From a virus, in the IMG/VR virus record IMGVR_UViG_3300008113_000012, positions 32,001 to 96,000 of that record: a stretch of 64,000 bases of DNA; one strand, given 5' to 3'. Position numbers and translations under genes: made by a program. The notes under the pieces were generated by a model. It searched no databases. It saw only the letters and a program-made list of their open reading frames with translations, and was not told the DNA's origin. Shown here one piece after another: positions 3 through 58,227 of this stretch (position 1 is the first letter of the stretch; each line of letters begins with the position of its first letter).

Positions 3-1136
3 AAAATACAAGTAAGTATTACTGGTTTAGAAACTAGGCAATCAGCCTGGTATGCTCAACAGAAGACAGACTGTGCAAAAATTGAACAGAGCATTGCAGA
101 ACTGCAAAGTGTTGATATTGAAAAAGAGCTTGTGCAACATGCTAAGTTAAAACAATATGACGAACATGCGGCTAAGATTAAAAGCCTTAACAAAGAAAAG
201 GCCACACTAGAAACTGCTGTTATACAAGCTGACAAGACTGTAGCAAAATATACTAAAGAAGTAGAGCAGTTAAAAAATAAAACTTGTCCTGCGTGTGAGC
301 AAGGGTTACATAGCCACAAGCACGAAGAAATGACTACCGGTGCTGAAAAGAACTTAGCAGATGCTGTTGCATATTTAGAAAGTATTAGTGATAGCTATGC
401 AACTGTGCTTCAAGAGTTAGAGACTATAGGTGATATCAACGGCAGACCGCAGACTTACTACGACACTGTCGAAGAAGCATTAAAGCATCAAAACAATCTA
501 ACAAGTCTAGAAGAAGCATTGACTAGGAGACATACAGAAACTGATCCTTATCAAGAACAAATTGATGATCTTAAGCATACTGCTATGCAAGATATCTCAT
601 GGGATAATGTTAATTTGTTGAATAGTATGAAGGATCATCAAGAGTTCTTGTTAAAATTACTAACAAACAAAGATAGTTTTATCCGTAAAAAGATCATAGA
701 TCAGAACCTTGCCTATTTGAATAACAGGCTTACGTACTATCTTGACAAGATGGGATTACCGCATCAAGTTAGTTTCTTAAACGACTTAAACGTTGAGATT
801 ACACAGTTAGGACAGGATCTAGATTTTGATAACTTGTCTCGTGGCGAACGCAATCGTTTAATCTTAGGATTAAGCTGGGCGTTCCGTGATGTGTGGGAAA
901 GTCTGTATCAAAGCATTAACTTATTGTTTGTTGACGAGCTTATCGACAACGGATTAGATGCAAACGGTGTAGAAAATGCGTTAGGTGTACTTAAGAAGAT
1001 GGCACGTGAACGTAAGAAGAACATTTTCTTAATCTCACACAAAGATGAATTGATTGGTCGTGTTAATAATGTACTTAAAGTTGTTAAGGAAAACGGCTTT
1101 ACCAGCTATGCAAACGATATTGAGGTTACAGAATAA
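3..1136 (+). CDS. gp46: Rad50/SbcC-like recombination endonuclease ATPase subunit (T4 gp46-like), 5'-truncated by the window edge
   Basis: Frame is open from position 3, upstream of the 132 start in the track. Zinc hook CPAC, coiled coil, ABC signature LSRGE, Walker B LLFVDE, H-loop ISH. Confidence 0.93.
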   Translation, partial: KIQVSITGLETRQSAWYAQQKTDCAKIEQSIAELQSVDIEKELVQHAKLKQYDEHAAKIKSLNKEKATLETAVIQADKTVAKYTKEVEQLKNKTCPACEQGLHSHKHEEMTTGAEKNLADAVAYLESISDSYATVLQELETIGDINGRPQTYYDTVEEALKHQNNLTSLEEALTRRHTETDPYQEQIDDLKHTAMQDISWDNVNLLNSMKDHQEFLLKLLTNKDSFIRKKIIDQNLAYLNNRLTYYLDKMGLPHQVSFLNDLNVEITQLGQDLDFDNLSRGERNRLILGLSWAFRDVWESLYQSINLLFVDELIDNGLDANGVENALGVLKKMARERKKNIFLISHKDELIGRVNNVLKVVKENGFTSYANDIEVTE

Positions 1137-1409
1137 ATGAGCGAGAGTCTGCATGATCAGTTAATGAAAGAGTTTCGAAAGTATTTTGAAAATTATCAAG
1201 ACTGGGCTATGAATCAGACTCACGCAGCAGGCATGAGAACTAGGGCAAACTTATTAGAAATTAGACGACTTTCTAGAGAACTTAGAATAGATATTCTAGA
1301 AACTCGCAGAACGTTTCCAAAAATTAAATCACCAAAATATAGAGAAGCAAAGTTAAAAGAACAGCTCGCTCAAAAACAACAGGCACAAGGCGACAGCGGC
1401 ACTAACTAA
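1137..1409 (+). CDS. Small basic protein, histone H1-like (Hc1-type) helical hairpin
   Basis: AAGMRTRANLLEIRRLSRELR resembles the AAGxRARKxxxExxKxxKExR motif of Hc1-like proteins; basic tail; abuts gp46. Confidence 0.55.
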   Translation: MSESLHDQLMKEFRKYFENYQDWAMNQTHAAGMRTRANLLEIRRLSRELRIDILETRRTFPKIKSPKYREAKLKEQLAQKQQAQGDSGTN

Positions 1410-1413
1410 GTGC

Positions 1414-1851
1414 ATGTCATGGTATTATCAAGGAACTTTAATCGAAGCTTTACCCGAAGAGTGTATTGGCTTTGTTTATTGCATCACTAATAACATAACT
1501 GGTCGCAAATATATAGGCAAGAAATTAGCAAAATTCTCTAAAACAACTTATAAAACAGTAAAACTCAAAAACGGCAACAAGAAGAAAAAGAAGATTCGTT
1601 CTAAAATTGATTCTGACTGGCGTGAATACTATGGCTCAAGCGACCATCTAACAAAAGATATAGAAACTCTAGGCGCAGAGAATTTCAAAAGAGAAATACT
1701 TTACTACTGCACATCAAAGGCTGAATGTTCATACATCGAGGCAAGAGAACAATTTACAAGACGTGTTCTCGAAAGTGACGACTACTACAACGGACACATT
1801 GCTGTTCGTGTACACGGAAGTCATATCAAAGGCAAACAACTAAACGGTTAA
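1414..1851 (+). CDS. Stand-alone GIY-YIG family endonuclease
   Basis: GFVYCITNNITGRKYIGKK motif, YYGSS, NFKREIL, conserved E, YYN near the C-terminus; Lys-rich insert. Confidence 0.88.
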   Translation: MSWYYQGTLIEALPEECIGFVYCITNNITGRKYIGKKLAKFSKTTYKTVKLKNGNKKKKKIRSKIDSDWREYYGSSDHLTKDIETLGAENFKREILYYCTSKAECSYIEAREQFTRRVLESDDYYNGHIAVRVHGSHIKGKQLNG

Positions 1852-2292
1852 AGCTCGCACAGGCTAATTTCGTGTGCCGAACAGTAGAAACCTGGACTCA
1901 GTGTCGCAGGGATCCGTAGACTCTTGCCGTTAAGAGCACTCAATCAGTATCCTTTACAGGACCAGGATCGCAAAGCTGCCGCGGTTTGATTGTTTTAAGG
2001 AAATAAAGGCAAAAAGAGGGGAAATAAGCCCCACGTTTGCATGTATGTTAGCGTATGCATGTAGGCCGCCGTCATAATAAAGACACAGCTCGAGGTACCG
2101 GATGACCGCCTCTGTAACTGCTGTAACGCTAAGTGGATTGTGCAACTCAGATAATGTTCAATTTTCTTTGCCCGCAAGGGCAAAGTGTGACTGAACAATC
2201 TAGATAATATTTAAACTGCTTCGCAGCAATTAATAAAAGAAAAATAGTTCGAGCTGAAAAGCGAAGAACTGATGTACGCAAGTACATCATTA
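1852..2292 (+). ncRNA. Candidate large structured non-coding RNA of unknown class
   Basis: No credible ORF. More than 10 helices, GNRA-capped stems (GCAA twice, GAAA) and two long-range pseudoknot pairings (1941-1947/1986-1992; 2048-2054/2126-2132). Confidence 0.65.
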
Positions 2293-2293
2293 A

Positions 2294-2299
2294 TAAATA
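2294..2299 (+). promoter_or_regulatory. Late promoter motif TAAATA
   Basis: Core of the T4 late promoter TATAAATA; 7 nt before the ATG at 2307. Confidence 0.65.
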
Positions 2300-2306
2300 C
2301 ACTACT

Positions 2307-3383
2307 ATGAAAATATATGAAATTGTTACTGAAGATCGTGCTAATGAAGGGATAGCTGACATTGCTAAAGGGGCAGCTACGGGTATAGCTAAAGGGGCTA
2401 AATGGGCTAAAGATGCTATTACCGGAACTAAAGCAGGTGCTGAAGTAGCTAAGGATGCTGGAAAAGCAAAGAAAGGTGTTGAAGTAGCTAAAGATGTGGC
2501 AAAAAATGCTGACAAGCTAAAGGTATCTGCAGAAGCAATGTCCAAAGTTAAGTCATTTGGCAGTGCTTTCATGTCTATATTAAGTGCGCTAGGTATAACA
2601 TACTTTGTCTATGAGTACTGGACTGAGATATTAAAACTTGAAGCAGAGTGGACTGAGTATAATAATGCAATTAAATCAAAGACTCAAGTGCCGTCAACTA
2701 ATAAATTTGCTGGCAAAGATTACGAAACAGCACTAAACGAAGCAGAGAACATGCGTTCGGACCTATTAGGTAAAGCAGTTGCTGGATGTTTAACGTCTGC
2801 AGGAATATTTGGAAAAGTAGTGCAAGTGTTTGGAACATTATTTAAAGCACTTCCTGTATTTGGTCCGCTAATAGGATCAACTATTGTAGGCGCAGGCTGG
2901 ATTATATCTAAAATAGAAATTGCACGAGCACCGTTTTTAATTTGGTTAGAAACTACTGACTCTGGTAAAGAGTTTATGAAGAATGTTTTTGTAGTGCTTA
3001 TTCTCGGCGGAACTGGCAAAGTTGCCGCCGATGCGGTTGATGCTCTTATGAAGTTAGCTGATATTGCAGTTGAGTTTATTAACGAAAAGTTTGGAACTAA
3101 CATTAAGAAACCTTCTGATACAGGTTTAGGTACAAAAATTAAACCAGATGCAGAAGCAGAAAAAGAAATAGATGCAAATATAAAAACTATTGACGGTGTT
3201 CCTGCTACTACAGCTGATGGTTACTTAAGATCTGATAGACCGTTCTGGGTACACAATAAAGTCAAATGGGAAATTGAAAAGCAAATGAATAAAGGACAGC
3301 CTAATCCTTTAGATAGTATCCCTAAGAATCCAAAATTAACTTATCCAACTGACTTGTTTAGAAATCTAAACTATGCAGGTTAA
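2307..3383 (+). CDS. Hypothetical protein with hydrophobic segments; candidate internal head (ejected) protein
   Basis: 358 aa. N-terminal MKIYEIVTE, Ala/Lys-rich stretch, several hydrophobic helices. Confidence 0.6.
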   Translation: MKIYEIVTEDRANEGIADIAKGAATGIAKGAKWAKDAITGTKAGAEVAKDAGKAKKGVEVAKDVAKNADKLKVSAEAMSKVKSFGSAFMSILSALGITYFVYEYWTEILKLEAEWTEYNNAIKSKTQVPSTNKFAGKDYETALNEAENMRSDLLGKAVAGCLTSAGIFGKVVQVFGTLFKALPVFGPLIGSTIVGAGWIISKIEIARAPFLIWLETTDSGKEFMKNVFVVLILGGTGKVAADAVDALMKLADIAVEFINEKFGTNIKKPSDTGLGTKIKPDAEAEKEIDANIKTIDGVPATTADGYLRSDRPFWVHNKVKWEIEKQMNKGQPNPLDSIPKNPKLTYPTDLFRNLNYAG

Positions 3384-3610
3384 ATTAAGTTAATGCCGCT
3401 TTTCTTAGTGGCTTCGATATTTTCTTTAATTATTTCGTTTATAATTGTGCGATCTTCATACGAGTATGTATGAAACAGTAATTCGCTACTAACACCACCT
3501 CGCATATACCAACTTATGCGAAATATCTCGTCTTTTATACTTTTTATTTCGAATTCTAAGCCCTTAACAAATCCCTCAATCTCAGAGTTTGAGAGACGTA
3601 AGAGCTTCAT
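3380..3610 (-). CDS. Baseplate hub assembly protein (gp51-like) / GT-like C-terminal extension
   Basis: 76 aa. ATGA overlap with the upstream gp26-like gene; SYEDRTIINEIIKE resembles gp51-like proteins of T4-like phages. Confidence 0.6.
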   Translation of the reverse strand: MKLLRLSNSEIEGFVKGLEFEIKSIKDEIFRISWYMRGGVSSELLFHTYSYEDRTIINEIIKENIEATKKSGINLI

Positions 3611-4491: not shown

Positions 4492-7374
4492 ATGGCAGAA
4501 CGAAATTTTACTGACGGAGACGTTAAAGCACTAGGCAAAGAAATTGCCAGCGCCATCCGTGGCGGGGGTGGCGGAGGGGGTGGCTCTGGTGGAGGGGGTG
4601 GCGGAAAGGCAGATACAACACCTTCAAAAGAAGCAGCTACTACGTTTAATTCCATGATGAAAGACTCTGCTGATGCCGCTAATAAAGTCACAGCAGCGTA
4701 TAACAAAGTAGCTCCCGGTATTGAAATAGGTCTTAACACTTGGAGAGATCTAAGTAAAGTTGGCGCAGGATTTAGCAATGACATTGTAGGAATGACAGCG
4801 GCGGCTGCTGGAACACGCATGCCGTTAGGTGAATTTGCAGGCGTTATTAAAGAAAACGCTGCAAACTTGTCTGGATTTGGTGGAAATGTTACTCGAGGTG
4901 GAGAAGAATTTGCTAGATTGAGCAAGCGAATGTTTGATGATTATGCACCAAACACTGATCAACTGCGTCAAATGGGCCTTACTAACAAGGACCTTAACGA
5001 ACTTCTAATGATACAGAGCGTATCTACTCGTGCTAAAATGAAAGACGGGGACGAAAAAGATAAGAAACTAATTGAAAACGCAATGGCATTAGGTACAGAA
5101 ATGGATCTAATGGCCAAGCTAACTGGTAAGAGTCGAGAAGCTCAAATGGAGCAACAGCGTAAGAATCAACAAGACATGGCGTTTGAAGCTGCTATCCGTA
5201 GAAAAACTATTGGGATGAGTGCAGACGAAGCTATGGAGTTTGAGAAAAATGCACGTAATCAACTTCGTGATGCCCAACTGCGTGGACAAGAAGCAGTTTT
5301 CAAAGATGTATTTTCGACAGGAACTATTAAAAGTAAAGAAGCAGCAGCACAAGCAAGTATAAATCAAGAACAAGCCGCTGCTACAATGAAGCAAGCACAA
5401 GTATCCGCTGATAAAACAATGGATTCTAAAGAAAGAGAACGTCAAGCTAACGTTGCTGCTGCTGAAGGTCGTAGAGCATTTGATAAAGACATGCAAAACG
5501 ATACCAAGTTGATGTATGCATCTCTAGGAGAACAAGGCGGCACAGTAGGCAAAGTCATGCGTGACAGCATGGGCGCCAACATTGAATACCAACGCAACTT
5601 AGAAGCTACTGCAACTAAAATGAACATCGTCATGAAAACTGACGAAGACCGTGCTAAAGTGCAAAAACAAATGGAAGAAGATGCTAAATCAGCAGCCGCG
5701 GGCAAGAAAGCTGACGGTACACAAGCTGATGCATCAACAAAAGCTCTAGTCAATCTTGGAGCAAGAGCAGGCGATGTAGAAAGTGCCTTTATGAATAAGA
5801 TAGTTAAACCTTTAAATGAAAAAGTTAACCCGGCATTTGAAAAACTAGCAGAGGGCGCATTAGGTGCAACTAAGAAAGGTGCTACTGAAACTAGAGTCAA
5901 CGCAGCAGAACGTGAGTTAGCAGAAGGAGCAGCAGGAAAAACTACTACCGGATTAAACAAAGTAGGTGCAGTCGTTAACGAAACTGGTGACATAGTTAAT
6001 CAACTAGCTGGAGTTAAAAATCCTCCTAAGCCAGCGCCTACAAAATCAATTCCACAAAAAGCTCTTGGAGGCCCAGTTGAAGAAGGTGAACCGTATATTG
6101 TAGGTGACGGTGGCGAAGAAGAAATATTCGTACCTAAGACAGCTGGAGAGATCATTCCTAAGAGTATGCTATCACCAAAAGGATTAGGTAGCCGTTCTCA
6201 AAATATGGATGGTGCTTATAAGTCAATGCAGTCAATGAATCCTGCTAAAATGTTTGAAGAACTTAAAGCTAAAACTAGCGGTGGTGGATTAAATCTTAAC
6301 GAGATTTCTAAAGACATTAGTACAACAGTCAGTGGCGGCGGCTCGAGCACTGTAAAAGTTCCAGACATGGCAGAGATGACTAAGAAGTTTGAAACTTCCT
6401 TTGCTGAGTTTGATAAAGTTGCTATAAAAAATATCAAGTTTGATGACTTATCAAGTTCTTTTAAAACTTCGTTTGATGATTTTGGATCTGAAATATCAAA
6501 CTATGCAGATCTTAACGATCTAATGTCTCCGTTTGAAGAATCGTTTAGCAGTTTCAATAACGATTTTGAAAGTATGATTGTATCCTCAAGTGAGGATATT
6601 GCTGATGCAATGGGCGGCTCAAAAGCATCGGCTGCACAAGCAAAGATTGACGATGCAATTGCAGAAAAACAGAAAGCACTAGATAAAATAACCTACATGT
6701 TAAATGAAGTATCTGACGAAGATTTTGATCAATCTGCATGGGATGAAGCTATTGCAGAACGTGATGCGGCTCAAGAAAAGTTAGACAAAGTTATTGAAGA
6801 GTCGATAAGTGATCTAGCAGGAGGATTTGACGATTTTAGTGATAACTGGGAAGAATCATTAGATAAAGTTAGTGCAGATATTACAGATGCTATCCCGTAT
6901 GACGAATTTGGCGGACTCGATGAAGCTATTGCACGAAATCAAGCAGACGATAAACAAAGAGCAAAAGCAACTAGTGGTGCAATGCAAGAAGTTGTTACTG
7001 GCTCTAGCCCTGCAAAGTTAGATCGAGGTATCACTACAGACAGCTTTACTTTAGGACCAAACGGATTACCTATTGCGAAACCAAAATCAACAGCAGCCGC
7101 TGTTCCAGAAAAGAAAAATGAAGGAAAAACTGCCGAAGAACAAGTTAAAGAACGAGAAGAACAAGCCAAAGCTGACATGGCAAAAGGTGACAAAGGCGAA
7201 AAATCTATTAAGAAAGAAGGCAGTGACAGCAAAGGCGCTACTCTAGATGACCTACTTAAGAGCATGAATGCGTTAAATACTAAGGTAGGTCAACTGATTT
7301 CTGTTAATGAAGATGGTCATAAAGCCTCAGCCAAAGCTGCAAAAAGCAATAATGCTAACCTATATACGAGATAA
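4492..7374 (+). CDS. Tape-measure-like protein
   Basis: 960 aa, helical and Ala/Gln/Lys-rich; contains KALGGPVEEGEPYIVGDGGEEEIFVPKTAGEIIP, a motif typical of tape-measure C-terminal regions. Confidence 0.75.
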   Translation: MAERNFTDGDVKALGKEIASAIRGGGGGGGGSGGGGGGKADTTPSKEAATTFNSMMKDSADAANKVTAAYNKVAPGIEIGLNTWRDLSKVGAGFSNDIVGMTAAAAGTRMPLGEFAGVIKENAANLSGFGGNVTRGGEEFARLSKRMFDDYAPNTDQLRQMGLTNKDLNELLMIQSVSTRAKMKDGDEKDKKLIENAMALGTEMDLMAKLTGKSREAQMEQQRKNQQDMAFEAAIRRKTIGMSADEAMEFEKNARNQLRDAQLRGQEAVFKDVFSTGTIKSKEAAAQASINQEQAAATMKQAQVSADKTMDSKERERQANVAAAEGRRAFDKDMQNDTKLMYASLGEQGGTVGKVMRDSMGANIEYQRNLEATATKMNIVMKTDEDRAKVQKQMEEDAKSAAAGKKADGTQADASTKALVNLGARAGDVESAFMNKIVKPLNEKVNPAFEKLAEGALGATKKGATETRVNAAERELAEGAAGKTTTGLNKVGAVVNETGDIVNQLAGVKNPPKPAPTKSIPQKALGGPVEEGEPYIVGDGGEEEIFVPKTAGEIIPKSMLSPKGLGSRSQNMDGAYKSMQSMNPAKMFEELKAKTSGGGLNLNEISKDISTTVSGGGSSTVKVPDMAEMTKKFETSFAEFDKVAIKNIKFDDLSSSFKTSFDDFGSEISNYADLNDLMSPFEESFSSFNNDFESMIVSSSEDIADAMGGSKASAAQAKIDDAIAEKQKALDKITYMLNEVSDEDFDQSAWDEAIAERDAAQEKLDKVIEESISDLAGGFDDFSDNWEESLDKVSADITDAIPYDEFGGLDEAIARNQADDKQRAKATSGAMQEVVTGSSPAKLDRGITTDSFTLGPNGLPIAKPKSTAAAVPEKKNEGKTAEEQVKEREEQAKADMAKGDKGEKSIKKEGSDSKGATLDDLLKSMNALNTKVGQLISVNEDGHKASAKAAKSNNANLYTR

Positions 7375-13279: not shown

Positions 13280-13307
13280 TCAACTTACCGCAAGGTACGT
13301 TAATTAT

Positions 13308-13332
13308 AAAGGGCTCTTCGGAGCCCTTTCTT
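13308..13332 (+). terminator. Intrinsic terminator after the major capsid gene
   Basis: AAAGGGCTC-TTCG-GAGCCCTTT followed by CTT; C(UUCG)G loop. Confidence 0.85.
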
Positions 13333-13341
13333 ACGAACGGA

Positions 13342-13434
13342 TAAATATATTGTATGATTCACACAGGGTGAATTTTATGCGGAAATCCAACCGCGTATGG
13401 CCTAGAACGCCATGTTTCTTAAGGAGAAAATAAA
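13342..13434 (+). promoter_or_regulatory. Late promoter plus multi-hairpin 5' leader
   Basis: TAAATA at 13342-13347; stems 13357-13373, 13376-13397, 13397-13413 and an RBS-overlapping stem 13415-13429. Confidence 0.55.
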
Positions 13435-14145
13435 ATGGGACGTCCTTTACATAAAAAATATTTTGGTAATACAATTACCCCGTTCAACAACTATGCACAA
13501 GGTGGCAACACTGGTGTAGGCGGAGAAGGCGTTGCTAGTGTAACAATCGCAGCACCAATCACGGCAGATCTAACAGGAACAATTACTGTTACATTTTCAG
13601 CTCCTCAAATTTCAGGCGGCATTACTGCAACAGGTACTGCACAAGTTAACGGCAGCAATGACCTAACAGGTATTTTGATTACTAATGCTGGTTCTGGTTA
13701 TACTTCAGTTCCAACATTCACAGTTGCCGACGGTAACGAGACTGCAACTTATACTAGTGGTTCAGGCGGCGTTACAGTTGCATTGACTAGCGGTGCAAGT
13801 GCTCGTCAAAACGCAATTAAATTTGAAGCACAAATTGGTTCAGGTACTGAAGTTACTACAGGTGACATTATCAAACAAGTTGGAAATCACAGATTTAGAG
13901 TTAGAACAAGTGATGGTACAGAAACATGTAAACTAGTTGCTAGTGCAAATCTTGGTGTAAACGAAATGAGCATTACTGCTACTGACTCAGCAACTAACAC
14001 TTATTTTGTAACTAAAATAACTGCCCGCCGTGTACAGCTAACTCAGATTGCAGGCGGTTCAAACTATGTATACGCAACCGGTGAAAGTGCTCCTTGGAAG
14101 TTTGATGCAGCCGCTGGTATCTACGTACAGATTGAAAATCAGTAA
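13435..14145 (+). CDS. Virion structural protein (head decoration/appendage candidate)
   Basis: Gly/Thr-rich beta-type sequence with an ITNAGSGYTSVPT module; strong RBS; follows the capsid gene. Confidence 0.65.
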   Translation: MGRPLHKKYFGNTITPFNNYAQGGNTGVGGEGVASVTIAAPITADLTGTITVTFSAPQISGGITATGTAQVNGSNDLTGILITNAGSGYTSVPTFTVADGNETATYTSGSGGVTVALTSGASARQNAIKFEAQIGSGTEVTTGDIIKQVGNHRFRVRTSDGTETCKLVASANLGVNEMSITATDSATNTYFVTKITARRVQLTQIAGGSNYVYATGESAPWKFDAAAGIYVQIENQ

Positions 14146-57167: not shown

Positions 57168-57863
57168 ATGATTATAGGTGTATGCGGGTTTATTGGTTCT
57201 GGCAAAGATACTGTTGCTGACTATCTTACAAATTTTCACGGATTTAGACGAGAATCATTTGCCAATAGTTTGAAAGATGCAGTAGCACATGTATTTGGTT
57301 GGGACAGAACAATGCTCGAAGGGCGTACAAAACAGGCCCGTGAATGGCGTGAACAAGTAGATCCTTGGTGGGCAGACCGACTCGGCATTCCAACTCTTAC
57401 TCCTCGTTGGGTCTTACAATATTGGGGAACAGAAGTGTGCCGTCGAGCATTTCACGATGACATTTGGATTGCCAGCCTTGAAAATAAACTCCGAAACAGC
57501 CGAGACGACATTGTTATTAGTGACTGTCGCTTCCCTAACGAAATTAAATCAATTAAAGATGCAGGTGGCATTGTAGTACGTGTAGTTCGAGGACCTGAGC
57601 CAGACTGGTATCAAGATGCTATAGATATGAATGCAGGTGACCGTTGTATAACTTATATGACTGCTAAAGTACGTATGCAAAAATTGGGAATACATGCTAG
57701 TGAAACTGCATGGGTTGGAACTAAGTTTGACTTAGTTCTAGATAACAATGCCACTATTGATGACTTGTTTGCACAAGTTAAAAGTCTGGTTTTAGAGACC
57801 CCTGCTTCCATTGAAAACCCTCCTTATGGAGAGTCCTTTGGCAGTTTGCACACACTGTCTTAA
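57168..57863 (+). CDS. gp1: Deoxynucleoside monophosphate kinase
   Basis: IIGVCGFIGSGKDTVA P-loop, FANSLKDA, TPRWVLQYWGTE, ISDCRFPNE, HASE. Confidence 0.93.
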   Translation: MIIGVCGFIGSGKDTVADYLTNFHGFRRESFANSLKDAVAHVFGWDRTMLEGRTKQAREWREQVDPWWADRLGIPTLTPRWVLQYWGTEVCRRAFHDDIWIASLENKLRNSRDDIVISDCRFPNEIKSIKDAGGIVVRVVRGPEPDWYQDAIDMNAGDRCITYMTAKVRMQKLGIHASETAWVGTKFDLVLDNNATIDDLFAQVKSLVLETPASIENPPYGESFGSLHTLS

Positions 57864-58119
57864 GATTTGCAGGACGGGAGTTATTTAGATTCCCGTCTAC
57901 GTGGAACACATTAAACTGTTCCTTATACTTGCTTTTATAGCCACACTTATCGCATTCTGACTTCATGCGATATCCATCTTGATACCACTTGGGCATACCT
58001 TTGCCTATTCCCCCATATCGAGCGCACACTTCGCATTTAGAGCGATAGAATACTCTACCTTCTTTACGATAGTTAATAGCAGCTGGTCTTAGCCCGCATC
58101 CGCATAGTGGTCTTATCAT
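57778..58119 (-). CDS. HNH-like zinc-binding protein (degenerate catalytic motif)
   Basis: CGC, CEVC, CDKCG, HVDGNLNNSRPANLKTVCANC. Confidence 0.75.
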   Translation of the reverse strand: MIRPLCGCGLRPAAINYRKEGRVFYRSKCEVCARYGGIGKGMPKWYQDGYRMKSECDKCGYKSKYKEQFNVFHVDGNLNNSRPANLKTVCANCQRTLHKEGFQWKQGSLKPDF

Positions 58120-58227
58120 AGTGTATTTAGCTGCCCTTTTCGACGCCTTTTTGGTGGGTTATAACAAGCCAATTTTTGTTTTTATCAATAAATACTAGTA
58201 GAACAAAAACCTTAGGAGATTCCAAAG

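What the first reader, a model, noticed from the sequence alone, without database searches (positions are those of the whole stretch)
1414..2292. GIY-YIG nuclease followed immediately by a ~440-nt double-pseudoknotted RNA: candidate new ribonucleoprotein or ribozyme system
Seen: this is the longest intergenic stretch in a densely coded window, and it is almost entirely paired. Helices: GCACA/TGTGC (1857-1877); CCTGGAC/GTC-G-CAGG (1891-1910); GATCC/GGATC (1911-1915/1965-1969) enclosing CTCTT/AAGAG and TCCT/AGGA; GGGG/CCCC (2018-2032); an 11-bp G-U-rich stem 2036-2065; ACAGC/GCTGT with GAGG/CCTC (2085-2124); TGTTCA/TGAACA enclosing CTTTGCCC-GCAA-GGGCAAAG; AGTTC/GAACT with GCT-GAAA-AGC; TGATGTAC-GCAA-GTACATCA. 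Pseudoknot 1: CAATCAG (1941-1947) with TTGATTG (1986-1992). Pseudoknot 2: loop TTAGCGT (2048-2054) with ACGCTAA (2126-2132). G-U pairs and GNRA loops favour + strand RNA. The nuclease has no separate DNA-recognition domain but has a Lys-rich insert (KTVKLKNGNKKKKKIRSK). Inference: the RNA is co-transcribed with and bound by the nuclease, by analogy to IscB/TnpB with omega-RNA, or it is an unknown large ribozyme or scaffold. I could not match it to tmRNA, RNase P or group I/II intron cores.
Basis: partly seen in the sequence, partly recalled or inferred. Interest (0 to 1): 0.88.

Follow-up and report, generated by a model that had tools for sequence, protein, structure and literature searches.

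The report
Full-length twin-box Polynucleobacter-1 phage RNA
The gene-free 440 bases behind a small nuclease gene of this uncultured freshwater T4-like giant phage encode a real, multiply knotted non-coding RNA whose first third is the catalogued but unexplained Polynucleobacter-1 motif; the same RNA also sits in mobile islands of lake bacteria without the nuclease, so the nuclease is a neighbour rather than a proven partner, and the RNA's job is still unknown.

Summary
Window 1852-2292 (+) is a conserved, structured RNA. A model of 103 pairs in 20 helices, with three pseudoknots, is 87% paired across 51 relatives, and its covariation is far above both controls.

Bases 1852-1995 are a full-length match to Rfam RF01718, Polynucleobacter-1 (83.5 bits). 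That motif's link to the upstream gene family was already noted in 2010. The other 300 nt are uncatalogued.

Their core is two 12-nt 'twin boxes' (2144-2155 and 2197-2208). Their variable 7-mers are identical to each other in every phage copy read, across at least 9 haplotypes. No partner was found.

- The RNA follows the GIY-YIG gene in almost all of about 200 phage loci.
- It also follows a PD-(D/E)XK nuclease in one phage.
- It lies in tRNA-Phe islands of Polynucleobacter and other Burkholderiales beside a 188-aa tyrosine recombinase, with no GIY-YIG gene.
- The GIY-YIG family occurs in three inspected cultured phages without the RNA.

Most likely this is an autonomous RNA of mobile elements that displays two matched address boxes. 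Its function is unknown. The scan found this RNA before on other DNA.

The parts
1414..1851 (+). 145-aa GIY-YIG nuclease, catalytic domain only, with a conserved Lys-rich beta-hairpin insert (residues about 40-66)
   Evidence: PF19835, E 2.8e-33. The GIY..YIG, R, E and N motifs and the insert are at least 90% conserved in 65 relatives. AF2 pLDDT 82.5; best fold I-TevI 1ln0, prob 0.97. 37% identical to P-SSM2 PSSM2_218.
1852..2292 (+). Whole structured RNA (about 440 nt)
   Evidence: Conserved end to end in more than 120 unique phage copies. Structure statistics. G-U pairs and UUCG/GNRA loops fit the + strand only.
1852..1995 (+). Domain 1 = Rfam RF01718 Polynucleobacter-1. It holds PK0 (1852-55/1862-65), P1 (1857-61/1873-77), P2 (1892-97/1903-09), P3 (1919-25/1932-37), P4 (1941-46/1987-92), P5 (1947-52/1959-63) and P6 (1966-71/1981-86).
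   Evidence: 83.5 bits against a gathering score of 37, model positions 1-141. Helices 1-8 are 68-99% paired, mostly with changes on both sides.
1993..2017 (+). Conserved single-stranded joiner (UUUKAA...AAAGGCAAAAAGA)
   Evidence: Conservation lines. GUUUGAA does not change with box haplotype.
2018..2136 (+). Central domain: P7 (2018-21/2029-32), P8 (2037-46/2055-64), PK2 (loop 2048-54 with 2126-32), GCCGCC, PK3 (2071-75 with 2102-06), P9a (2086-89/2120-23), P9b (2092-95/2109-12) and the invariant GGUA..G....ACCGCC.
   Evidence: MI covariation. Helices 9-14: PK2 96% paired, PK3 96.5%. Weak, sub-threshold likeness to cow-rumen-2 RF02947 (19 bits against 66).
2137..2162 (+). Hairpin H-R1 (2137-43/2156-62). 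Its 12-nt loop is twin box R1 (2144-2155, AACUC-AGAUAAU; variable 7-mer 2149-2155).
   Evidence: Stem complementarity beats permuted partners (3.90 against 3.44 +/- 0.07). Box identity.
2166..2191 (+). Hairpin P10 (2166-73/2178-85, GCAA loop) plus the invariant GUGUGAC
   Evidence: Helix 16 is 98% paired. Invariant columns.
2197..2208 (+). Twin box R2 (AAUCU-AGAUAAU; variable 7-mer 2202-2208)
   Evidence: Identical to the R1 7-mer in 126 of 126 unique phage copies, at least 9 haplotypes. This also holds in types B and C, in L197 and in 14 of 15 bacterial copies read.
2216..2289 (+). 3' hairpins: P11 (2216-19/2223-26, UUCG), P12 (2247-50/2266-69 with 2253-55/2260-62, GAAA) and P13 (2270-77/2282-89, GCAA). 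P13 is the likely 3' end or terminator.
   Evidence: Helices 17-20; P13 is 96% paired and 7 of its 8 pairs change on both sides. No canonical U-tract terminator.
2292..2299 (+). AATAAATA box, like a T4-type late promoter, for the next gene (ATG 2307). Not part of the RNA.
   Evidence: The TAAATA block is conserved in A1 where a + strand ORF follows. The reading as a late promoter rests on established T4 knowledge.

Best explanation
Window 1852-2292 is the full-length form of the orphan 'Polynucleobacter-1' RNA class. It is an autonomous, trans-acting, roughly 440-nt non-coding RNA carried by mobile elements of freshwater Burkholderiales: T4-like giant phages (here) and tRNA-Phe genomic islands.

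**Shown**
- In this phage the RNA starts one base after the stop codon of the gp46-like / GIY-YIG operon and ends at hairpin P13.
- It folds into a pseudoknotted scaffold (three pseudoknots, about 20 helices).
- It carries two copies of one 7-nt 'address': one in the 12-nt loop of hairpin H-R1, the other in a single-stranded stretch 53 nt downstream.
- The RNA has fewer internal Watson-Crick complements to its own boxes than to other haplotypes' boxes.

**Inferred**
- It is transcribed as the tail of that operon.
- The two boxes act together by base pairing. They pair either with two copies of a matching sequence or with one partner in two states. This would explain why both boxes always carry the same letters while the letters differ between lineages.
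- The GIY-YIG nuclease is an operon neighbour, a conserved small nuclease of T4-like phages. It is not the RNA's obligate partner.

**Unknown**
- The partner and the cellular effect.
For: - **Family:** RF01718 at 83.5 bits over the full model.
- **Structure:** 103 pairs, 87% paired, covariation 0.366 against 0.161 in shuffles and 0.06-0.085 for slid partners. RNAalifold finds 37 pairs with compensatory changes.
- **Twin boxes:** identical in 126 of 126 copies with at least 9 haplotypes. On an ML tree the two boxes always change together (8-38 events).
- **Against simple gene conversion:** the fixed differences ACUC/AUCU lie inside the concerted tract.
- **Boxes look unpaired in cis:** no partner column inside the RNA. 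Watson-Crick complements of the RNA's own box are depleted (1 of 74 against 10% in controls).
- **Same box architecture in other forms:** phage types B and C with different 5' domains, L197, and the bacterial RNAs. The phage profile matches the bacterial RNAs over both the 5' domain and the 3' module.
- **Independence from GIY-YIG:** there is no GIY-YIG gene in 29 bacterial loci. There the cassette is DUF6641 | RNA | 188-aa tyrosine recombinase.
- **Accessory distribution:** the RNA is present in 9 of 101 Polynucleobacter species genomes. It lies in ~10-kb tRNA-Phe islands.
- **GIY-YIG without the RNA:** GIY-YIG homologues in three inspected cultured phages lack the RNA.
- **No co-evolution:** no GIY-YIG residue tracks the box haplotype.
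- **Expression:** contigs from RNA libraries of four studies lie on 1416-2233, and one bridges 1579-1924. This is weak evidence because they are contigs and DNA carry-over is possible.
Against: - No partner sequence was found in the RNA, in +/-5-10 kb flanks of 85 loci, in the 108-kb own record, or in three complete 350-kb relatives.
- If the partner tolerated G-U pairs, mixed A/G states of the two boxes should be seen. None is seen in phages and only one in bacteria (L235).
- In phages the RNA-nuclease linkage is almost perfect. In every context the neighbouring gene is a DNA-cutting or DNA-joining enzyme consisting of little more than a catalytic domain. That pattern would also fit a protein partner.
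- Neither the transcript ends nor the strand have been measured.
Confidence: 0.55

Rival explanations
1. The RNA is the nucleic-acid-recognition subunit (guide or scaffold) of the neighbouring enzyme. That enzyme is the GIY-YIG nuclease here, a PD-(D/E)XK nuclease in L197, and the small tyrosine recombinase in bacteria. The twin boxes would be paired guides.
For: - The RNA lies directly downstream of, and on the same strand as, GIY-YIG in almost all of about 200 phage loci.
- In L197 a non-homologous nuclease, PF24608, takes the same place.
- The bacterial neighbour is a 188-aa recombinase that is only a PF00589 catalytic domain.
- GIY-YIG lacks the C-terminal DNA-binding domain and has a conserved basic beta-hairpin.
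- The boxes are variable, as guides are.
Against: - The GIY-YIG family matches in 574 cultured-phage records. The three I inspected lack the RNA.
- In phages an ORF can sit between GIY-YIG and the RNA (L029, L076, L024, L107). In bacteria an ORF can separate the RNA from the recombinase (L239).
- Two islands with different boxes both sit at tRNA-Phe.
- No target for the boxes was found.
- No protein-RNA co-variation.
Confidence: 0.12
2. The RNA is a ribozyme or a self-processing RNA. The conserved core would cut or join the chain at the two identical boxes, releasing or circularising the 53-nt hairpin segment.
For: It has the size, the pseudoknots and the many invariant unpaired bases typical of large ribozymes. 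Two identical sites flank a conserved hairpin.
Against: No match to any ribozyme family in Rfam at E up to 10. No contig from an RNA library showed a joint from box 1 to box 2; the only joint nearby, 2117 to 2195, is a single low-depth contig.
Confidence: 0.1
3. It is a cis-acting 3' UTR element (terminator, stabiliser or insulator) of the early operon and has no trans function.
For: It lies at the end of the + strand operon, often facing convergent genes. It ends in stable tetraloop hairpins.
Against: A 440-560-nt structure with three pseudoknots and concerted boxes far exceeds what termination needs. In bacteria it stands alone between divergent genes. No canonical terminator was found.
Confidence: 0.08
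4. It is a template RNA with realignment boxes. By analogy with telomerase RNA, coronavirus TRS and DRT2 RNA (from my own knowledge), a polymerase would copy the segment between the boxes and jump between the identical boxes.
For: Such a mechanism demands exact identity of two short direct repeats that flank a structured segment.
Against: Pfam, PHROGs and PADLOC found no reverse transcriptase among the ORFs I scanned beside the RNA in the window, in L197 or in the island. The spacing varies (about 49-78 nt).
Confidence: 0.05
5. It is a DNA-level element. The boxes would be protein-binding or crossover sites, for example for a tyrosine recombinase, which needs identical overlap regions. Alternatively it is a single-stranded-DNA origin.
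For: Overlap-region identity is a known requirement of tyrosine recombinases (established knowledge), and such a gene neighbours the bacterial RNA.
Against: No tyrosine recombinase in three complete phage relatives. The boxes are direct repeats only 49-78 bp apart with no helical phasing. The helices covary with G-U pairs and carry RNA tetraloops. The motif is not repeated elsewhere in the genome.
Confidence: 0.04

Closest known systems
Polynucleobacter-1 RNA motif (Rfam RF01718; Weinberg et al. 2010, Genome Biol 11:R31, PMC2864571)
   Same: Bases 1852-1995 match the whole 141-position model at 83.5 bits, and the model's helices covary here. As the 2010 supplement noted, the RNA lies downstream of the GOS11034 / PSSM2_218-like gene, which I identify as this GIY-YIG family.
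   Different: - The catalogued motif is only the first third.
- The remaining roughly 300 nt are not in Rfam: PK2, PK3, the ACCGCC core, the twin-box module and the 3' hairpins.
- The 2010 authors found it in no purified phage. Here it lies in roughly 350-kb T4-like phage genomes from metagenomes.
Large orphan structured RNAs of phages and mobile elements (GOLLD, ROOL, HEARO, OLE; from my own knowledge of the literature)
   Same: Several hundred nucleotides, many pseudoknots and invariant bases, carried by phages or islands, function not evident from context.
   Different: No sequence or structure match to any of them in Rfam. None is known to carry two concerted identical boxes.
IscB/TnpB omega-RNA and IS110 bridge RNA (RNA-guided nucleases and recombinases; from my own knowledge)
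   Same: A structured RNA encoded next to a compact DNA enzyme, with short variable segments inside a conserved scaffold.
   Different: - The enzyme families differ (GIY-YIG, PD-(D/E)XK, tyrosine recombinase).
- The linkage is not obligatory.
- The variable segments are two identical internal boxes, not an end guide or two different loops.
- No matching target was found, and there are no transposon ends.
T4 SegE and I-TevI-type GIY-YIG homing endonucleases
   Same: GIY-YIG catalytic domain with intact motifs (PF19835; fold nearest to I-TevI 1ln0).
   Different: Only 145 aa with no C-terminal DNA-binding domain. It is present at the same place in all relatives rather than sporadically, and it is more conserved than its neighbours (57-96% against 46-93% for gp46). 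It does not behave like a selfish homing gene.
cow-rumen-2 RNA (Rfam RF02947)
   Same: 2035-2132 aligns over the whole model and shares the UUAGC loop, GCCGCC and GGAUGACC.
   Different: 19.1 bits against a gathering score of 66, E 0.72. This is a lead only.

Membership tests
Polynucleobacter-1 RNA (RF01718) | Covariance-model score at or above the gathering score (37 bits) over the full model | tested here: met
   83.5 bits, E 3e-16, model positions 1-141 of 141 at 1852-1995 (+).
Polynucleobacter-1 RNA (RF01718) | The model's helices are kept by compensatory changes in relatives | tested here: met
   P1, P3, P4, P5 and P6 are 90-99% paired and P2 about 70%. Most pairs change on both sides.
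Polynucleobacter-1 RNA (RF01718) | Lies downstream of a GOS11034 / PSSM2_218-like gene (2010 description) | tested here: met
   The upstream ORF hits P-SSM2 176732-177112, which is PSSM2_218 (37% identity).
Omega-RNA / guide RNA of IscB-TnpB-like systems | The RNA is obligatorily linked to its nuclease gene | tested here: not met
   The bacterial copies lack GIY-YIG. L197 has a PD-(D/E)XK gene instead. GIY-YIG homologues in three inspected cultured phages lack the RNA.
Omega-RNA / guide RNA of IscB-TnpB-like systems | A variable guide matches a target next to the element or elsewhere | tested here: inconclusive
   The variable boxes are internal and duplicated. No complement was found in flanks or whole phage genomes beyond chance. 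Host genomes were not searched.
Omega-RNA / guide RNA of IscB-TnpB-like systems | The protein binds the RNA and needs it for cleavage | not testable with these tools
   No tool for protein-RNA complexes was available. No co-variation between GIY-YIG residues and boxes.
Group I/II introns, RNase P RNA, tmRNA, known self-cleaving ribozymes | Match to the family's covariance model or detection by ARAGORN | tested here: not met
   No hit at E up to 10 in 1700-2450. ARAGORN finds no tRNA or tmRNA in the window.
SegE-like GIY-YIG nucleases (PF19835) | GIY-YIG domain with catalytic residues | tested here: met
   E 2.8e-33. GFVY..YIG, the W-R/Y-YGS region, the E of SYIEAREQF and the N of YYNG are invariant or nearly so. 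The fold is nearest to I-TevI.
SegE-like GIY-YIG nucleases (PF19835) | Separate C-terminal DNA-binding domain and sporadic (homing) distribution, as in T4 SegE | tested here: not met
   145 aa, with the domain covering residues 3-129. The gene is present in essentially all relatives at the same place.
cow-rumen-2 RNA (RF02947) | Score at or above the gathering score (66 bits) | tested here: not met
   19.1 bits, E 0.72.

The most novel reading that the evidence does not exclude
The RNA is a programmable addressing subunit shared by several unrelated compact DNA enzymes: the GIY-YIG nuclease, a PD-(D/E)XK nuclease and a catalytic-domain-only tyrosine recombinase. Its two identical boxes would pair with two DNA sites of the same sequence and bring the enzyme to them. 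That would make it a new class of RNA-guided DNA cutting or joining in phages and islands.
Probability: 0.08. Interest if true: 0.95.

Novelty: new variant of a known kind. Interest (0 to 1): 0.6.

Why it matters
Large, intricately folded RNAs with no known job are rare, and several earlier ones turned out to be new biochemistry.

- **What this adds.** This one was catalogued only as a 141-nt fragment. Its true extent is about 440 nt in phages and about 560 nt in bacteria. It has three pseudoknots and a conserved module of two boxes that always carry the same letters, although the letters differ between lineages. That pattern points to a matched-address or realignment mechanism not described for any bacterial RNA I know of.
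- **Why it is tractable.** The island form matches at the coordinates that the 2010 Stockholm file gives for the cultured strain Polynucleobacter sp. QLW-P1DMWA-1 (NC_009379). The question can therefore be tested at the bench.

Tried and rejected
- **Promoter reading of the boxes.** AAYYYAGATAAT occurs only at the two boxes in the 108-kb record. The 9-mer is not clearly enriched. A third ATCCAGATAAT lies inside an ORF.
- **Cis partner.** No column of the RNA covaries with the box positions except the other box. The U/G-rich 1990-1995 can wobble-pair with most haplotypes, but it is invariant and partly inside P4.
- **Trans partner.**
  - Nothing syntenic in the flanks of 85 loci. Two recurrent hits lie in coding sequence of the convergent gene and are lineage-specific.
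  - Complete relatives show chance-level counts.
- **GIY-YIG as the specificity partner.** Highest MI 0.38 of 1.0, which is phylogenetic background.
- **Ribosomal bypass like T4 gene 60** (matched codon plus stop plus hairpin plus a ~50-nt gap). No ORF or start codon reads into box 1, and the stop is absent in some haplotypes.
- **Boxes as guides for island integration.** Two islands with different boxes share tRNA-Phe.
- **Tyrosine recombinase or DUF6641 in phages.** Neither was found in the own record, and no tyrosine recombinase in five related records, three of them complete.
- **Rfam on type B and C loci.** No hit.
- **Searches that returned nothing.**
  - The downstream 358-aa protein has no relatives by the search for related loci.
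  - No blastn match of 1100-3400 in cultured phages.
  - The bacterial-type core is absent from viral contigs.
- **Read laying.** RNA-library contigs gave no cover on 1154-1423 or beyond 2233. A single low-depth joint runs from 2117 to 2195. Neither is usable as evidence.
- **Tree count of box changes.** Up to 38 joint changes. This is an upper estimate, because the closest pairs with different haplotypes already differ at 76 or more columns.
- **PDB search by sequence.** Only a weak hit, 3r3p.
- **Not run.** Complex prediction, because it takes no RNA.
Full report
**What is there.** The window is part of a 108-kb IMG/VR virus record that CheckV rates 29% complete. Complete relatives are 345-355 kb. 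Gene order is a gp46/SbcC-like gene, a 90-aa basic protein, a 145-aa ORF (1414-1851), an ORF-free stretch (1852-2306), and then a variable 358-aa gene. Two convergent genes and a tape-measure-like gene follow.

The 145-aa ORF is a GIY-YIG nuclease:
- Pfam PF19835, E 2.8e-33.
- Catalytic motifs are invariant in relatives.
- The AF2 model has pLDDT 82.5, and its nearest solved fold is the I-TevI catalytic domain.
- The Lys-rich insert is a conserved beta-hairpin.
- There is no further domain.

**The RNA is real.** The + strand folds better than shuffles (z -3.8). The decisive evidence is comparative.

- In about 55 of the 80 loci fetched, the whole 455 nt is conserved right behind the stop codon at 68-94% identity.
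- A second scan used only an RNA motif (GGTA..G....ACCGCC ... GTGTGAC). It gave 120 more loci.
- 126 unique full-length copies were aligned. Mutual information picks out Watson-Crick covariation for every helix.

On the 51-sequence alignment A1 my model has 103 pairs in 20 helices. The figures are in this table:

| Measure | Model | Shuffled | Slid partners |
|---|---|---|---|
| Cells paired | 87.2% | 74.5% | 36-41% |
| Covariation score | 0.366 | 0.161 (0 of 500 reach it) | 0.06-0.085 |

75 of the 103 pairs change on both sides. Frequent G-U pairs and UUCG/GNRA loops fit the + strand only.

- Most of the listed helices hold.
- 'Pseudoknot 2' (2048-54 with 2126-32) is strongly supported.
- 'Pseudoknot 1' (CAATCAG/TTGATTG) is a real helix, but it is nested. 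The GATCC/GGATC helix that would make it a knot has no support. The covarying helix there is GATCGC/GCGGTT.
- TGTTCA/TGAACA is also unsupported. Instead, 2137-43 pairs with 2156-62.
- Two further pseudoknots exist: 1852-55 with the P1 loop 1862-65, and GUCAU 2071-75 with AUGAC 2102-06 inside the P9 loop.

**It is partly known.**
- Bases 1852-1995 match Rfam RF01718 (Polynucleobacter-1) over the whole model at 83.5 bits.
- The 2010 supplement says that most such RNAs lie downstream of genes of family GOS11034, with possible homology to PSSM2_218 of cyanophage P-SSM2. It also says that none was seen in a purified phage and that the 3' half is not always detected.
- The window's GIY-YIG protein hits exactly PSSM2_218. 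So the 'nuclease followed by RNA' linkage is the one noted in 2010, now with the gene identified.
- The other roughly 300 nt are in no Rfam family. The only nearby score is a sub-threshold likeness of 2035-2132 to cow-rumen-2 (19 bits against 66).
- Earlier agents of this scan reached the same reading on other genomes.

**The twin boxes.** The most conserved architecture lies in the 3' part, in this order:
- hairpin H-R1, whose 12-nt loop reads AACUC-AGAUAAU (2144-2155);
- hairpin P10;
- the invariant GUGUGAC;
- AAUCU-AGAUAAU (2197-2208).

The seven letters after ACUC/AUCU vary between lineages: AGAUAAU, GGAUAAU, GCAUAAU, GAAUAAU, GGAUGAU, GGAUGAA, AGAUGAA, AGAUGAU and GAAUGAU. They are the same in both boxes in 126 of 126 copies.

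The rule also holds in more distant forms:
- Type B and type C phage RNAs have unrelated 5' domains and no Rfam hit. They add the haplotypes AGACGAA and ACAUGAA.
- In L197 the shared word is AGGAAAUAGUUAA.
- In bacterial copies the words are AGCGAAAG, GGAGAAAG, ACCAAAAG, AUCAAAAG and AGAGAAAG. There is one exception among 15 read.

On an ML tree built without the boxes, the two boxes always change together. The count is between 8 and about 38 events. The upper figure is inflated, because copies with different haplotypes are always fairly diverged.

The fixed differences ACUC against AUCU lie inside the concerted tract, which argues against simple gene conversion.

Nothing else explains the boxes:
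- No other column of the RNA covaries with them.
- The RNA avoids Watson-Crick complements of its own box: 1 of 74 copies has one, against 10% for other haplotypes' boxes.
- The box is not a genome-wide motif.

**Nuclease: partner or neighbour?**

For a link:
- GIY-YIG directly precedes the RNA in nearly every phage locus that has enough upstream DNA.
- In L197 an unrelated PD-(D/E)XK endonuclease (PF24608) takes its place.

Against an obligate pair:
- GIY-YIG homologues match in 574 cultured-phage records. In the three I inspected (Melnitz-3, P-SSM2, ACP17) no such RNA follows the gene.
- In some relatives an ORF separates GIY-YIG and the RNA.
- No GIY-YIG residue follows the box haplotype.
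- A scan of bacterial genomes found 29 loci with the homologous ~560-nt RNA and no GIY-YIG gene. They include cultured Polynucleobacter isolates, Limnohabitans and an Oxalobacteraceae chromosome.

The bacterial context is different. There the conserved cassette is DUF6641 (divergent), then the RNA, then a 188-aa tyrosine recombinase that is only a catalytic domain, then a 249-aa protein. The RNA is present in 9 of 101 Polynucleobacter species genomes. It lies in ~10-kb islands at tRNA-Phe, together with a full-size integrase and an AAA ATPase. Two islands with different boxes share the same tRNA-Phe site, so the boxes do not choose the integration site. No tyrosine recombinase is found in three complete phage relatives.

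**Expression.** Contigs from RNA libraries of four studies lie on 1416-2233. In one run the 3' module has the highest depth. A 350-nt contig bridges the ORF and the RNA. These are contigs from runs chosen with this sequence, so this is only weak support for transcription and co-transcription.

**How it most likely works.**

Shown:
- a conserved, pseudoknotted RNA-type fold on the + strand;
- it starts at the stop codon and ends at hairpin P13, just before a late-promoter-like AATAAATA box for the next gene;
- it belongs to mobile elements of two kinds.

Inferred: the scaffold presents two matched 7-nt addresses that must remain identical. That is most simply explained if both pair with the same kind of partner, or with one partner alternately.

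I put 0.55 on 'autonomous trans-acting RNA with a matched-address module, nuclease as neighbour'. The rivals are:

| Rival | Confidence |
|---|---|
| RNP with the neighbouring enzyme | 0.12 |
| Ribozyme or self-processing at the boxes | 0.10 |
| Cis 3' UTR element | 0.08 |
| Template with realignment boxes | 0.05 |
| DNA-level sites | 0.04 |

**Novelty and verdict.** The family is known but was catalogued as a fragment. I found none of the following described in the papers I could search:
- the full extent of the RNA;
- the extra pseudoknots;
- the modular 5' domains;
- the twin-box rule;
- the dual phage/island habitat.

The function remains open, and the island form can be tested in a cultured Polynucleobacter strain. 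I rate it a new variant of a known kind, interest 0.6.

Noticed in passing
window 13357-13437 (+): A second Rfam hit above threshold: freshwater-2 RNA (RF02980, 72.2 bits against 49.9). It lies in a 155-nt ORF-free gap, 13280-13434.
   Followed up: no
window 57864-58227: The second-longest stretch without a + strand ORF (364 nt). The + strand folds with z -3.5, and the stretch ends in an AAUAAAUA late-promoter-like box before a 1162-aa ORF. A 113-aa minus-strand ORF (57778-58119) overlaps it, so it may be coding.
   Followed up: partly
GenBank phage records hit (for example AY939844.2 176711-177148): Homologues of this GIY-YIG protein are widely annotated as 'NAD synthetase' in cyanophage and other T4-like phage records, and PHROG 447 carries the same name. 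Pfam and the predicted fold say GIY-YIG nuclease, so the name looks like a propagated mis-annotation.
   Followed up: partly
L049, L067, L069, L072, L048, L055, L071, L029 (type B); L023, L059 (type C): Relatives carry roughly 190-330-nt 5' domains unrelated to Polynucleobacter-1, fused to the same twin-box 3' module. None matches Rfam. These are uncatalogued structured-RNA variants.
   Followed up: partly
L239 8331-18982 (Polynucleobacter genome G039) and L240: A roughly 10.6-kb island at tRNA-Phe, bounded by a 49-nt repeat of the tRNA. It carries the RNA, DUF6641, a 188-aa and a 423-aa integrase, an AAA/clamp-loader-like ATPase and several proteins with no family. No known defence system was detected.
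   Followed up: partly
window 1137-1409 (+): The 90-aa basic protein between gp46 and GIY-YIG has a weak likeness to histone H1-like Hc1 (PF07432, E 1.8e-4, below the cut-off). It is present only in the closer relatives.
   Followed up: no
window 4492-7374 (+): The 960-aa tape-measure-like protein has a run of glycines near its N-terminus (GGGGGGGSGGGGGG).
   Followed up: no
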